NCBI GenBank assembly: GCA_964016885.1
Contig: OZ024743.1
Coordinates: 177,630,001 to 177,694,000 of the forward strand
Direction of reading: 5' to 3'
Source of the DNA: Eledone cirrhosa
Taxonomy: Eukaryota
DNA: 64,000 nucleotides
Part shown: one piece after another, positions 1 through 60,592 of the stretch
Numbering within the stretch: the first letter of the stretch is position 1
How the letters are laid out: every line of letters begins with the position of its first letter
The notes under the pieces: model-generated
Seen by the model: the letters and a program-made list of their open reading frames with translations, nothing else
Databases searched by the model: none
Told to the model about the DNA's origin: nothing
Position numbers and translations under genes: made by a program

Positions 1-327
1 TTTGTATGTAACGCGAACAGGTGCGAAATTTATTATACTTATTGATAAACCAATCAAATTACTTCTCTAAAAACCTGGCGCTTCGAGTCACTTTTTTCTA
101 TATAAAACAAGTAACATTCTAAGATCAACCAGATGTGAGGAAAACCACAGACCCTCCATCTCAACTCTACTTTTGAAAAGCAGAAGAACTGCGAAACCGG
201 TAAAGGATCCAATAAATATATATATTTAAAAAAAAATAAGACTCCAGTTGCATTTTCGATTTCATCTTTTTTTCTTTATACTTTCACTCGGTTATTTTTC
301 ATTTTGTAAAAAATCCTCACTTTCTAA
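1..327 (+). mobile_element. Repeat family A (PLE pLTR/retrozyme-like) with variant HHR at 170-205
   Basis: Near-identical sequence at 1128-1866, 2999-3324, 5170-5528, 14600-14792, 25551-25928 and 60294-60441. Ends in (TA)n. Confidence 0.8.
170..205 (+). ncRNA. Minimal type I hammerhead, U3-A8 variant
   Basis: ctt-TTGAAAA-GCAG aagaa CTGC-GAAA-CCGG-TA^aag: stem I ctt/aag, stem II GCAG/CTGC, palindromic stem III ACCGGT, GUA triplet. Confidence 0.6.
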
Positions 328-500
328 TATATATATATATATATATATATATATATATATATATATATATATATATATATATATATATATATGTATATAT
401 ATATATATATATATATATGTATATATATATATGTATATGTGTATATATATATACATGTACATGTATACGTGTATGTATATATATATATATATATATATAT

Positions 501-697
501 ATAGGAACCAGTAAGACCCCGACAGCTGAGCTCAAGCCGTTTCGACGGCTAATTCTGAGTCCAGAATTAGCCGTCGAAACGGCTTGAGCTCAGCTGTCGG
601 GGTCTTACTGGTTCCTATTACCCACTCTACTACCTCAAGTATTGAGTACTTTGGTGCGTTATGGTCCACCTGGTTCCTTACCACATTTCCTTCGTTA
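501..697 (+). mobile_element. Repeat family B, palindromic element between (TA)n tracts
   Basis: 501-618 is a perfect hairpin with a 4-nt loop at 558-561, followed by a tail. Copies at 9722-9901, 14313-14508 and 56700-56897. Confidence 0.8.
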
Positions 698-1127
698 TAT
701 ATATATATATATATATATATATATATACATATATATATATATATATACGTATATATATACATGTATATGTATATATATGTATATACATGTATATATATAT
801 ATATATATATATATATATATATATATATATATATATATATACATATATATATATATACGTATATATATACATGTATATGTATATATATGTATATACATGT
901 ATATATATATATATATATATATATATATATATATATATATATATATATATATATATATATATATAAATATAGTTTTATAAGTATAGTATTTATAAGTATA
1001 GTTCCCATTTATTTAATATCAATTGAATACTTACTCCAGAAAGTTGTCGAGTGCTTTGAATCAGTTGTAAACATCTATATTTGTTGGATTTACAACAAAT
1101 TAAATATATATATATATATATTTATAT

Positions 1128-1866
1128 AGAAAAAGATGAAATCGAAAATGCAACTGGAATCTTATTTGTAAAAGAATATATATATTTATTTGCTTCCTTT
1201 ACCGGTTTCGCAATTCTTCTGCTTTTCAAAATTAGAGTTGAGATAGAGGGTCTGTGGTTTTTCTCCCATCTGGTTGGTCTTAGAATGTTACTTGTTTTAT
1301 ATGGAAAAAAGTCGCTCGAAACCCCAGGTTTTTAGAGAAGTAATTTGATTGGTTGGTCAATAAGTATAATAAATTTCGCGCCAGTTCAGGTTACAAAGTT
1401 CTTCAAACAAGGGGTGGTGTATAGGTTGTTTTTTCATATATGAGTGAAGTTTTGTTGGTTGATGCAGTCACGTGAATAAGCAAACTTACTCATATATGAA
1501 AAAAACAACCTGACCCCCCCCCCCTTGTTTGAAGAAATTTGTAACGCAAACTGGCGCGAAATGGATTACACTTATTGACCAACCAATCAAATTACTTCTC
1601 TAAAAACATGACGTTTCGAGCCACTTTTTTCCATATTAAACAAGTAACATTCTAAGACCAACCAAATGTGAGAAAACCCACAGACCCTCCATCTCAACTC
1701 TACTTTTGAAAAGCAGAAGAACTGCGAAACCGGGAAAGGAAACAAATAAATATATATATATTTTTTAAATAAGACTCCAGTGCATTTTCGATTTCATCTT
1801 TATACATTCACTCGTATAGAACCCACCGGTTATTTTTTATTTTGTAAAAAAACCTCACTTTCTAAT
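1128..1866. mobile_element. Family A inverted pair
   Basis: 1128-1450 is the diverged reverse complement of 1487-1800. Flanked by (TA)n. Confidence 0.8.
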
Positions 1867-1979
1867 ATATATATATATATATATATATATATATATATAT
1901 ATATATATATATATATATATATATATATATATATATATATATATATATATATATATATACATATATATATATAAAAGTC

Positions 1980-57520: not shown

Positions 57521-59261
57521 ACATACATTAATGGTCCTCATGTCTGTTGAATGCTCGGTCACTTAGGCATTGATCTCACGAGGAATCTGTTTTGTTTAAC
57601 AAACAACAGGTACAATCCTCGCTGAAATTGACGGGGATCCAATCCACTTTGTTGTGAATATTGTAACTTCTCTTTTTGTAAGTCTCACTCTCATAATATT
57701 GTCTACTCTAAATTAACCTCACATACTCTTCTGGGTCTCTTTCGTTCTTGGTATTTTTCTCTCTCTTCCTTGCTATTTTCATTCTTTTTTTTACCTACTA
57801 TGTGTTTTATATGTTGCGTTCATTTTTACAACTTGCAATTGGGAATCATATTTCCTAGTTATTGGTCTCGTGGAATATAAAATATTAATGTTTCTGCTAA
57901 ACATGAAGTAAACAACACTTTCAAAATGGACATTTAATAAACTTCTGTAAGGAAAGATATTTTTAAAATGTAGTACGTACTGTCCTTATTTGAGAACCAC
58001 TGTCTTTTATCTGAAATAGAAAGAACATCCGTTAGTTATAGAAGAGTATAAGAAAGCAATAATATGTACCTAATAGGTACACATAAACCAACGTAGGCAG
58101 AACAATAATACAATAATACAGACATCAGAGAAATAAATATTGTATTTCACGTCAAACAGTAATATTAAATTGTACCCCGCAAGGAAGAATTTATTTCATT
58201 GTTTCGATTTTTCACGTTACTATTTACCAGACCCACAGATACCTTCATTAGCTTTCTTGGAAGAAACTGTTTCGTTCCTACGTTCGTCTCTCACTTGTCT
58301 TGTGTTCTCGTTCAGTGTTCTAAAGTAAAATTTCCCTCACTGTGAGTTGAATATTTAATCCAATATCAGTGAAATCATTTCTATATATTTACTCAACAAC
58401 GGTCCTTTCAACAATCTGGTCTCGATGGGAGATTTGTAGTACTAATTACATTTCATTCTGTTGAACAGTGTACTTGTACTAGATCAGCATTCCAACTAGG
58501 GAATATTGATAAATTTGATATCTTATTTTCTAATCCTTATGATCCACAGATGTATGTGTCAGCAATATGGGATTCCTAAAATGACTATAATTAGGATTTA
58601 ATTTTTATTAATAAGAGTTTATCTTCTCGTTTTCTTGATGTAGGATAAGTACAAATGTCGTGCAGTTTTAAATTCTAAGGTTTTAAAGTAAGGAAGAGGA
58701 AAAATATCTTGTCACTCTGGTATTAGGCAAAAAACAACAACAAAATAATTGCCTACAGTCCAAGCAACAGCATAATTGTGTCTTTTCTTCTTTCTCTCAG
58801 AACAGGGCCAAGAACAAAAGTATAAATTTCTATACTCATCACACACGGCAATTTAATTTACCTACTATGCTCTTTCCAATTTAATAATTTTTAAAATAGT
58901 TTAGTTAATACGAAGCATTGTGAGATATATAAGTGACGGATAAGTTTGAGAAAGCCGATACAATGTGGTATGAATATACAAAGAGTAAAGGATGACAAAT
59001 AAAATGAAATAGAGTAATGTTTTACCCAGTATATTTCAACATAATATTTCAGGGATATAATCCACTTTTCAAATGGAAAACGAAAACGGTTCCGAACAAA
59101 ACGTCGAACGAACATCGATCATCACCTGCTTCCCTGAATTTAGGATTTTATATTACAATTTTTACAGGTTTAGAGGAGTGAGTCTGATCACACACACACA
59201 CACACACATATATATATATGTATGAATTATAAGAATCAAAGAACTGTTCAAAACAGTTTTA

Positions 59262-59308
59262 TGCTTACAACTGTTTCCTCCAAACCGAGGTTTGGATTCT
59301 TCGGAGCA
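59262..59308 (-). ncRNA. HHR with a U4C substitution, downstream of a possible GIY-YIG relic (59590-59860)
   Basis: tgct-CCGAAGA-aTCCAAACC tc GGTTTGGAg-GAAA-C AGTT G-TA^agca. Confidence 0.65.
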
Positions 59309-60293
59309 ATTTATTATTGAATGAACACTTATATGACCTCCTTTTCACCCAAGAGACATACAGATACATATGCAAATATTGTGGTTCAACATTCATTACA
59401 GCATTTAGTGTGGCAGTACACATTTAGAGATTACATTCATATTAAAAGATACAATCAAAAATACAGGTTAAAATACAACATGAAATTAAGCGGTTATATA
59501 GTGCAATGGTTATATGTGTGGCAAGCACGTGCGTCTTGTTTATATAGTGTGGCAGAGTGTTACGTGTAATAGAAGCACTTAAGCAGGTAATCAAGAGTGT
59601 TAAGGGGGTTGATCAGGTAATGAATTCTTCATATGATTGTTATAGCCTGTGTGTGGAGAAATAATATAAGTATTAAAAATAATGTAATCATTAAAAATAT
59701 TGGAAATGCGTAGCGAAGCGATGATATGGATTTCATGCACTGCGACATTTTCATAGTCTGGTGAGCGTATTTTTCAGATTATATGCCCCTCACATAATCC
59801 ACGACGATTCATATTGGGTGTTTGACAATCCAGTTAGAGAATCAATAAGGTAGTATATATTACTGCCTACCACTATTTAGGGTTTATAAAAATATATATA
59901 ACTACAAAAGGTTTTTGTATTTGCATAACCATAAATAGTATAATTAATACTATTAATACTATATATATGTATATATATATGTAATCTGAGTTTTTCTAAT
60001 ATTAATAATAATATTCGATTCGTTTGCAATTATGCAAACAAGCCTCATTTTTAAAGCCATGTCAGTAGAATGAGCCCCTCATTCTTGCTGTTGTGTTGCC
60101 ATTTTAACAGAACTGCAGACACTGTTTCAGGGCATTACCCTTCATCCGTACAGTTCACTTGCCAACTGTCAGATCTAGTGAAAATATATATTTTTTTAAA
60201 TATACAGTGACTGATCGGCCTGATTTGCATATTAGCAGACTGGCTGATCAGTCAGATCTGCATATTACCAATAAAAATTACGAAGACCGAAAT

Positions 60294-60441
60294 CTCACAT
60301 CTGTGAGAAAAACCACAAAGCCTCCACCTCAACTCTACTTTTGAAAAGCAGAACTGCGAAACCGGTAAAGGAACTAAATAAATATATATATATTTTTTAA
60401 AAATAAGACTCCAGTTGCATTTTCGATTTCATCTTTTTTTC
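60294..60441 (+). mobile_element. Family A fragment
   Basis: Homology to 5305-5460. Confidence 0.75.
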
Positions 60442-60559
60442 TATATATATATATATATATATATATATAATGGAAAAATTTGAACAGGAACAAAACAGAG
60501 AGGCAGTACAACGAATGTTTATTAATTTCACGCTCTGGAGAGTGGGGTGGTGGTGGGGA

Positions 60560-60592
60560 ACGACGTTTCGGGCATAAGCCCTTCCTCAGGTG
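60560..60592 (-). ncRNA. Minimal HHR-like motif
   Basis: CTGAGGA-a GGGC ttat GCCC-GAAA-CG-TC. Stem I is weak. Confidence 0.5.

What the first reader, a model, noticed from the sequence alone, without database searches (positions are those of the whole stretch)
170..60592. Dense array of hammerhead ribozymes from about 10-12 unrelated short repeat families
Seen: CUGANGA/GAAA/NUH cores with pairing stems at 2311, 2100, 4615, 10461, 18725, 21429, 28614, 28969, 40471, 47161, 59262 and 60560, plus family A and decayed copies, giving more than 25 motifs in 64 kb. Stem III is nearly always a short self-complementary segment (GCGC, CCGG, CTAG, TGCA, ATGT, AGTT). Known: PLE pLTRs and metazoan retrozymes carry minimal type I HHRs thought to cleave as dimers. 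Inference: a diverse community of non-autonomous ribozyme retroelements mobilised by the neighbouring PLE RT/GIY-YIG proteins and targeting (TA)n.
Basis: partly seen in the sequence, partly recalled or inferred. Interest (0 to 1): 0.9.

Follow-up and report, generated by a model that had tools for sequence, protein, structure and literature searches.

The report
Penelope retroelement ribozyme ends, plus retrozymes
The many hammerhead ribozyme motifs in this window are real, but most are the cut-short tail ends of at least ten Penelope-like retrotransposon families that litter this whole animal genome (an estimated few hundred thousand motifs), and two or three are non-coding tandem 'retrozymes' whose insertion ends suggest that the Penelope enzymes likely copy them too.

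Summary
Observation largely confirmed: 40 hammerhead-derived segments of 14 families; 15 hits pass a structure scan versus 0.07 in shuffles; stem II covaries. The interpretation needs reversing for most families. In genome copies, 10 of 14 are 3' ends (pLTRs) of Penelope-like elements (PLEs) with RT and GIY-YIG frames: seven Hydra-type, three canonical. The window holds their 5'-truncated, often head-to-head copies in (TA)n. Two families (28620, 10508), probably a third (60148), are non-coding tandem retrozymes; one (4706) is unplaced. It is not a local array: 53 hits in 360 kb sampled elsewhere, about 3-4 x 10^5 genome-wide by extrapolation; the window is 2-4 times richer. Families A and B carry the known U3:A8 core swap. 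New in detail: retrozyme G (22,954 complete motifs) shows the PLE footprint. Its 3' ends sit at two fixed sites next to (TA)n, away from the cleavage site, and it forms head-to-head arms. This supports the open idea that PLE enzymes move retrozymes. Cleavage and expression are untested. The scan noted a similar footprint earlier for a tRNA-bearing repeat in another genome (unchecked).

The parts
7..324 (+). Family A: 3' end of a canonical (DKG, GxKF) PLE; hammerhead with U3:A8 core at 173-202
   Evidence: parent RT and GIY-YIG upstream in L102, L106, L112; 11,539 exact 30-mers in the genome
503..693 (+). Family B: head-to-head copy broken inside stem II (5' core half lost), with tail; B or B-like also at 9733-9901, 14319-14506, 56702-56892
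   Evidence: parent Hydra-type PLE with complete U3:A8 ribozyme in L083
1123..1862 (.). Family A head-to-head pair (motifs near 1214 minus, 1721 plus; decayed)
2062..2413 (.). Family D head-to-head pair, complete hammerheads 2156-2108 (minus) and 2319-2367 (plus)
   Evidence: parent frame in L275; 29,791 3'-half matches
2998..3320 (.). Family A head-to-head pair (decayed)
4627..4706 (-). Family H hammerhead with long stem II; old family, parent not found
   Evidence: a nearby PLE in L278 proved unlinked
5170..5524 (.). Family A head-to-head pair, complete U3:A8 hammerheads 5272-5243 (minus) and 5356-5385 (plus)
7890..8040 (.). M-like head-to-head half ribozyme (3' half only)
9390..9580 (.). 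Family C head-to-head copy broken just 5' of the core (U10.1-U11.1 mismatch type); C halves also near 4516, 8104-8271, 56495-56648
   Evidence: pLTR followed by RT and GIY-YIG frame in L133/L273; 28,397 matches
10364..10754 (-). Family I: non-coding 314-nt tandem retrozyme, 1.3 units; hammerhead at 10508 damaged in stem II
   Evidence: (period 314 in L254, L255, L256, L260, L261)
14602..14792 (-). Family A, decayed copy
18559..19582 (-). Family F: 3' UTR and complete hammerhead (18783-18733) of a Hydra-type PLE, joined head-to-head to family E
   Evidence: parent frames in L348, L349
19599..21553 (+). Family E: 5'-truncated Hydra-type PLE (GIY-YIG, 3' UTR, complete hammerhead 21437-21491, tail)
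   Evidence: (L274: motif, 775-aa frame, motif; endonuclease 97% identical)
25568..25931 (+). Family A, longest copy in the window; complete U3:A8 hammerhead 25823-25852
26272..28214 (+). Broken Hydra-type PLE frame (family M relative, 83% identical to 32658-34570)
28223..28872 (+). Family G: non-coding 422-502-nt retrozyme; one unit plus a short inverted arm; complete hammerhead 28620-28650
28878..29042 (-). Family M pLTR with complete hammerhead 29021-28976
32284..34953 (+). Family M PLE: half pLTR (32284-32404), broken RT and GIY-YIG frame (32609-34570), decayed pLTR hammerhead (34874)
35202..40730 (.). Family N: canonical PLE (CX4CxxC linker) as a large head-to-head insertion; hammerheads with an extra base after A9 at 35455-35422 (minus) and 40480-40513 (plus)
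47130..47226 (-). Family E 3' end, cut by an assembly gap
59266..59304 (-). Family J hammerhead-like motif with family-wide U4C core; 3' end of a Hydra-type PLE
   Evidence: L268: motif, unbroken 832-aa frame, motif, 4,189 nt apart
59990..60260 (-). Family L: likely third retrozyme (period about 425-435); hammerhead 60148-60118, U4G in this copy
60293..60441 (+). Family A, decayed copy
60562..60589 (-). Family K minimal hammerhead (no loop 3, 2-bp stem I), 3' end of a canonical PLE
   Evidence: RT and endonuclease frames upstream in L270

Best explanation
The motifs are type I hammerheads that sit in the 3' repeats of at least ten Penelope-like retrotransposon families and in the units of two or three non-coding tandem retrozymes, and they likely pile up here because PLE enzymes are predicted to nick (TA)n tracts and copy RNA from its 3' part, mostly stopping after 100-400 bases. 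Shown: each short copy is the 3' end of a longer RT and GIY-YIG element (10 families) or of a tandem unit (G, I, probably L); copies abut (TA)n; 3' ends fall at two fixed sites per family (short end and tailed end); 5' ends vary; many copies are head-to-head pairs whose arms are more alike than random copies. Inferred: both DNA strands are nicked and each primes reverse transcription at one of two internal start sites (as shown in vitro for a lizard PLE, PMC11167929), and the two truncated cDNAs are joined head-to-head. The ribozyme is so common because it lies in the part that is copied first. Retrozyme RNA, likely multimeric or circular after self-cleavage, would be copied in trans the same way. 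Most window copies are predicted to be inert: a third lack half the core, short stem III motifs would need a same-strand partner, and a transcript across a head-to-head pair would fold into a long hairpin.
For: Parent frames: A, B, C, D, E, J, K, F, M and N in the window. Hydra-clade marks in J, E, M and in the endonucleases of B, C, D (against PMC8557442 section 11). Two 3' end classes: B 40 vs 120 nt, C 29-45 vs about 110, D about 60 vs 150-160, J 55 vs 220 after the core. (TA)5+ within 260 nt downstream in B 30/30, C 24/30, D 29/30, G 30/30, J 20/20; inverted mate within 1.5 kb in 22, 12, 12, 17 of 30 and 6 of 20. B: 34,096 3'-half matches but 5,755 core matches. G: 48 of the first 100 listed matches lie in head-to-tail runs (hand count); unit has no frame above 72 aa. 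Of 40 terminal G copies, 22 end at unit positions 230-239 and 11 at 280-299, none at the cleavage site; 31 abut (TA)4+. L276 is a 9-unit head-to-head insertion with a short end on one arm and a tailed end on the other; its arms differ at 1-3 of 265 bases, other copies at 6-39. Stem II covariation in the D/E/F group: 85 double-change cells vs 28 in shuffles (0/500) and 7-23 in slid controls.
Against: No cleavage or RNA data. No motif folds clearly better than shuffles except J (z -2.7; others -1.4 to +0.2), as expected for weak short motifs but giving no support. G's own unit has TA-rich stretches (a G copy always has a TA run downstream), so its first end site could partly reflect recombination with (TA)n. 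L's ends are spread over 100-189 and only 9 of 22 abut (TA)n. L280's array is heterogeneous (mean 17 of 265 differences), so not every array is one insertion. In B, 26 of 100 listed cores have C3 with A8, a mismatch (hand count), so some amplified lineages may not need an active ribozyme. Parent links rest on 1-3 loci per family. H has no parent. Covariation counts come from related sequences and are not probabilities.
Confidence: 0.86

Rival explanations
1. All short families are non-autonomous ribozyme retroelements, some of them hairpin-shaped units that replicate as such.
For: True for G, I and probably L. The 25 best family C loci share one fold point, and many family A pairs are about 110 nt apart.
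Against: That C query included the fold point. In the first 30 C loci by position, and in B, the break points vary. Both arms of L076 and of L121 carry the same private loop variant, which fits making the arms anew at each insertion. Ten families run upstream into RT and GIY-YIG frames. A genome-wide count of the C junction was not obtained, so a small replicating hairpin subfamily is not excluded.
Confidence: 0.07
2. The tandem families (G, I, L) are satellites born from an old PLE end and spread by DNA-level amplification or by a LINE, not by PLE reverse transcription.
For: A 19-unit G array turned up in a sampled 10 kb (L366); L280 is heterogeneous; the genome has RTE-type LINE pieces. Li 2026 discusses local tandem amplification.
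Against: About half of G copies are dispersed singles or pairs; two fixed 3' ends, (TA)n abutment and head-to-head arms match the PLE families here. I shows two end classes too (9 and 9 of 22). No homology of the units to the 11 PLE parent loci tested beyond nested copies and TA-rich stretches.
Confidence: 0.15
3. The palindromes, and so the doubling of motifs, are assembly artefacts from fold-back reads.
For: One pair is 100% identical (2062-2413); the window has a gap and very long TA tracts.
Against: Arms differ by 2.4-6.2% on average; one arm regularly lacks a family-specific tail; the same architecture is described for PLEs (PMC8557442; PMC4209133).
Confidence: 0.02
4. The cluster is a host-selected locus of working ribozymes.
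For: The window is 4.1 times richer than the genome mean for six exact family patterns (12 vs 2.9) and 1.6-2.4 times richer than sampled DNA.
Against: Mixed strands, half and decayed copies, 30% microsatellite; sampled 10-kb pieces with 6 and 19 motifs exist; the two flanking 10-kb stretches hold 1 and 0.
Confidence: 0.02

Closest known systems
Hydra-clade PLEs (Craig et al. 2021, PMC8557442; includes Hydra-1_Obim from an octopus, with a hammerhead and (TA)n preference)
   Same: C-terminal GIY-YIG, RW(K/R) and DKT motifs, CxCX5C linker, CxxC and CxH motifs, hammerhead in the 3' part, (TA)n insertion. The printed start of Hydra-1_Obim resembles family M by eye; not aligned.
   Different: At least seven families here (B, C, D, E, F, J, M; five RT pieces compared were 34-47% identical) against one listed octopus family; units of about 4 kb with 1-2 kb 3' UTRs against 'under 3 kb'; tens of thousands of truncated ends each for B, C and D.
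PLE pLTR minimal hammerheads (Cervera and De la Pena 2014, PMC4209133)
   Same: Palindromic short stem III, extra base after A9, U3:A8 swap (about 1,300 hits in Schistosoma), opposite-strand pairs 100-700 bp apart, singles from truncated PLEs.
   Different: Scale: 11,539 exact copies of one U3:A8 family and a second, independent U3:A8 family; U10.1-U11.1 and U4C fixed in whole families.
Non-LTR retrozymes of animals (Cervera and De la Pena 2020, PMC7229834; Li et al. 2026, 10.64898/2026.07.22.740005)
   Same: G, I, L: 300-500-nt low-GC non-coding tandem units with one type I hammerhead each, 64-71% of bases paired in the predicted fold, living beside PLEs.
   Different: RNA circles not shown here. 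The PLE link in those papers rests on co-occurrence and pLTR similarity; here it rests on insertion ends (two 3' sites, (TA)n, head-to-head arms).
Poseidon PAc of the green anole (Frangieh et al. 2024, PMC11167929)
   Same: Two internal RT start sites bounding a 'tail', both strands nicked and extended, AT-rich target; ribozyme cleavage not needed for insertion in vitro.
   Different: Tails here are about 30-165 nt; no protein from this genome has been assayed.

Membership tests
Type I hammerhead ribozyme | Core CUGANGA ... GAAA ... UH with stems I-III in type I order, above chance | tested here: met
   15 vs 0.07 shuffled; 14 of the 15 belong to families
Type I hammerhead ribozyme | Stem covariation with fixed core and free position 7 | tested here: met
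   D/E/F group: 6 of 8 stem II pairs change on both sides; position 7 takes all four bases in B and across families
Type I hammerhead ribozyme | Self-cleavage after NUH | not testable with these tools
   needs in vitro transcription
Penelope-like elements (EN+) | RT and GIY-YIG in one frame beside the ribozyme-bearing repeat | tested here: met
   unbroken 832-aa (J, L268) and 775-aa (E, L274) frames between two motifs; broken frames for A, B, C, D, F, K, M, N. Pfam finds RVT_1 only for canonical types, weakly, and no GIY-YIG model; the endonuclease call rests on motifs
Penelope-like elements (EN+) | 5' truncation, inverted copy and optional tail | tested here: met
Hydra clade | RWK-like and DKT motifs, CxCX5C linker, CxxC and CxH, (TA)n target | tested here: met
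   all in J and E; RWK, DKT and linker in M; linker and CxxC in B, C, D. F placed by similarity only
Hydra clade | Falls in the Hydra clade in an RT tree with reference elements | not tested
   no reference proteins in hand as usable sequences
Neptune or Poseidon clade (A, K, N) | DKG, GxKF and CX2-5CxxC linker; clade placement | tested here: inconclusive
   linker in K and N; DKG and GxKF read by eye in A loci; N has DKS; no tree
Non-LTR retrozyme (G, I, L) | Head-to-tail 150-500-nt low-GC non-coding units, one hammerhead each | tested here: met
   G up to 19 units; I period 314; L period 425-435 in 3 of 20 loci; GC 35-38%, longest frames 41-72 aa
Non-LTR retrozyme (G, I, L) | Expressed as small linear and circular RNA | not testable with these tools
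   no RNA run was offered
Non-LTR retrozyme (A-F, J, K, M, N) | Non-coding tandem unit independent of a frame | tested here: not met
   each runs into a PLE frame; direct mates within 1.5 kb in C 1/30, D 2/30, J 0/20, B 8/30

The most novel reading that the evidence does not exclude
This genome is among the most hammerhead-dense known (about 100 motifs per Mb, some 3-4 x 10^5 in all, against 120,000 in the 28-Gb axolotl), and its retrozymes carry the Penelope insertion footprint: PLE reverse transcriptase primes at two fixed internal sites on circular retrozyme RNA and rolls round it, laying down multi-unit head-to-head insertions in one step. That would be direct genomic evidence for how animal retrozymes move, with an unbroken candidate enzyme in the same genome.
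Probability: 0.6. Interest if true: 0.68.

Novelty: new member of a known kind. Interest (0 to 1): 0.5.

Why it matters
PLE hammerheads and animal retrozymes are known kinds, and one octopus Hydra element with a hammerhead is already listed. What this adds is a test case. Which enzyme moves animal retrozymes is open; family G names two start sites, a target and candidate enzymes with unbroken frames (J, E), so trans-mobilisation can be assayed directly. The genome also offers whole families fixed for core variants (U3:A8 twice, U4C, U10.1-U11.1, C3 with A8), which test whether PLEs need ribozyme activity at all. Repeat annotation should file these short palindromic repeats as PLE ends, not as SINEs or MITEs; a 2026 octopus repeat annotation does not mention ribozymes in its main text.

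Tried and rejected
Rfam found no hammerhead; its low-score hits are TA-repeat noise. The first two scanners were too strict (6 and 5-6 hits) and missed U3:A8 cores, long stems II and the extra base after A9. Single-strand folding was uninformative. Sequencing runs: no RNA holder listed for family G, which says nothing on expression; laying four contig sets showed only presence and variants. A C3-G8 sister form of family A: 0 matches. A PLE upstream of family H in L278 was rejected because unrelated insertions lie between and that PLE has its own hammerhead. PLE fragments downstream of G in L146, L161, L162 and L155 are separate insertions behind a TA tract. The homologue search with the J protein gave 95 relatives (29-40% identity) without useful names. 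The palindrome at 7084-7824 gave no hit in the scan. A genome-wide count of the family C junction and a generic count of the D/E/F group were not obtained, so the hot-spot reading rests on held loci only. Literature searches for a hammerhead survey in octopus or for insertion-end evidence on retrozymes listed none; the library lacks most subscription papers, and the supplements of the Li 2026 preprint could not be seen.
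Full report
Setting. The window lies at G000:C4:177630001-177694000 in a 3.0-Gb assembly. It is AT-rich and 30% microsatellite (19,232 masked bases). The repeat content suggests a coleoid cephalopod (inference: a Hydra-type protein that resembles the printed start of Hydra-1_Obim by eye, and a SINE that I recall from octopus genomes; not tested further).

Observation. Rfam found no hammerhead. A structure scan that allows any Watson-Crick 3:8 pair, an extra base after A9, a mismatch at 10.1-11.1 and long stems gave 15 hits at score 11 or more, against a mean of 0.07 in 30 block dinucleotide shuffles. 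Fourteen belong to repeat families. A count by family signature gave 40 ribozyme-derived segments in 14 families plus one M-like half; 28 keep a 5' core half and 12 do not. Three pairs of complete motifs are mirror copies of one insertion (2156/2319, 5272/5356, 35455/40480), 47223 repeats 21437, and D, E and F are related. On 49 distinct D/E/F-type motifs (49 of 65 collected, picked by hand to limit near-duplicates), 96% of cells pair and 85 cells change on both sides, against 28 in shuffles (0 of 500) and 7-23 with slid partners; the signal lies mainly in stem II. Folding energies were not unusual.

What the families are. I followed each family into the genome. Family A runs upstream through a long UTR into GIY-YIG and RT sequence of a canonical PLE in three loci. 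B ends a Hydra-type PLE in L083. C is followed directly by an RT and endonuclease frame in L133/L273, the pLTR-frame order of tandem PLEs. D ends a frame in L275. E and J flank unbroken frames of 775 and 832 aa (L274, L268); E's endonuclease is 97% identical to window 19572-20405. F ends frames in L348 and L349. K follows RT and endonuclease frames in L270. M and N are the repeats of the broken PLEs in the window. Motifs put B, C, D, E, J and M, and by similarity F, in the Hydra type as defined in Craig 2021 (section 11 read; motifs); A, K and N are canonical types. No tree was built. So 10 of 14 families are PLE 3' ends. G (28620) is a 422-502-nt non-coding unit: 29,098 3'-half and 22,954 complete motifs, 48 of the first 100 listed in head-to-tail runs (hand count), up to 19 units. 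I (10508) has period 314. L (60148) shows period 425-435 in 3 of 20 loci. H (4706) is old and unplaced.

Density. Exact patterns give 11,539 (A), 34,096 (B 3' half), 28,397 (C), 29,791 (D), 29,098 (G) and 3,081 (J) matches, with 0-2 in reversed controls; inverted pairs count twice, and B, C, D and J are counted by their 3' halves. The window has 12 such matches against 2.9 expected. Thirty-six 10-kb stretches, taken at round coordinates on large contigs, hold 53 scan hits (34 without one G array) against a mean of 1.5 in 6 shuffles. That extrapolates to about 2.8-4.3 x 10^5 motifs, with wide error since 15 of the 36 held none. The window is a rich stretch of a genome full of these motifs, not a special array.

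How it likely works. Shown here: copies abut (TA)n; each PLE family tested has two 3' end classes; 5' ends vary; 30-73% of sampled copies have an inverted mate; arms are more alike than random copies (2.4-6.2% vs 5.1-13.6%). About five in six B ends have lost the 5' core half (two different patterns, so a rough ratio). From Frangieh 2024 (main text read): a PLE protein nicks and extends both strands of AT-rich DNA, starts at two internal sites that bound the tail, and does not need ribozyme cleavage in vitro. Inference: two short cDNAs, one from each start site, are joined head-to-head; the ribozyme lies 30-220 nt from the start sites and is therefore the most copied part. The F/E junction at 19582-19599 joins two different families head-to-head with 16 bases and no TA tract between, which fits priming on two RNAs. 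Arms that share private variants (L076, L121) fit one RNA or a fold-back. I cannot choose between these.

The retrozyme footprint. Of 61 distinct G copies in the held loci, 20 are inside arrays, 1 did not align and 40 are terminal; 22 end at unit positions 230-239 and 11 at 280-299, none at the cleavage site, and 31 abut (TA)4+. Family I splits 9 and 9 of 22 between two sites; L is diffuse. L276 has two units plus a part on one strand with the short end and seven on the other with the tailed end; its arms differ at 1-3 of 265 bases, other copies at 6-39. This is the PLE pattern on a non-coding tandem unit and fits one copying event round a circular or multimeric RNA. Against: G has TA-rich stretches of its own, some arrays are heterogeneous, and no RNA was available.

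Core variants. A has U3:A8 in all 10 window copies, with no C3-G8 form in the genome. B has A8 in 100 of 100 listed cores, U3 in 74 and C3 in 26 (hand count). J has U4C in 19-20 of 20 copies. C, G and I open stem II with U-U. U3:A8 in PLEs is in Cervera 2014 (parts 1-2 of 4 read); U3:A8, U-U and U4C are in Perreault 2011 (passages and part 3 of 8).

Comparison with print. Cervera 2014 already describes massive, mostly single PLE hammerheads and opposite-strand pairs. Craig 2021 (passages, section 11, supplement rows) lists one octopus Hydra family with a hammerhead and (TA)n preference. Cervera 2020 (passages and section 14) and Li 2026 (parts 1-3 of 5; supplements not seen) propose PLEs as the movers of retrozymes from co-occurrence and pLTR similarity. 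Bonar 2026 (part 1 of 3 and a word search) reports active PLEs in an octopus and no ribozymes. My searches listed no cephalopod hammerhead survey and no insertion-end evidence for retrozymes.

Verdict. Real motifs of known kinds: new families of PLE pLTR hammerheads and new non-LTR retrozymes. The scale and the footprint on family G make an open question testable. Interest 0.5.

Noticed in passing
window 19582-19599: Head-to-head junction between two different PLE families (F on minus, E on plus) with 16 filler bases and no TA tract; suggests priming on two different RNAs.
   Followed up: partly
L366 (G000:C22:12000001-12010000): 19 tandem units of retrozyme G, period about 468, in a sampled 10 kb.
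   Followed up: partly
L268:754-3249; L269:2057-4552; L274:1653-3977: Unbroken Hydra-type PLE frames (832, 832 and 775 aa) between two ribozyme repeats; family J may be recently active despite a U4C core.
   Followed up: partly
   Followed up: no
window 16013-16479, 63346-63474: Palindromic repeat family next to a tRNA-like Rfam hit (16311-16381, 37 bits); possibly a tRNA-derived SINE inside or beside a head-to-head element.
   Followed up: no
window 11443-11663, 23224-23440, 24817-25113: SINE-like repeats (recalled as an octopus SINE); one copy is itself palindromic (11448-11600).
   Followed up: no
window 7084-7824: Long imperfect palindrome of a repeat family with no hit in the hammerhead scan.
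   Followed up: no
window 47765-48667, 41498-42310, 6596-6915, 25963-26081: LINE fragments (RVT_1 hit at 47765-48664) ending at (TA)n.
   Followed up: no
window 36347-39529: The family N frame carries a long asparagine-rich stretch, and a second internal palindrome (38317-39020, 92% identical arms) lies at its fold point.
   Followed up: no
window 42300-47130, 48800-56450, 47227-47426: About 13 kb of TA/CA-type microsatellite and a 200-base assembly gap that cuts a family E copy.
   Followed up: no
window 22489-22675; 5624-5919 and 6236-6532: A 61-nt three-copy tandem repeat, and a 300-nt direct repeat about 610 nt apart, both without a hammerhead hit.
   Followed up: no
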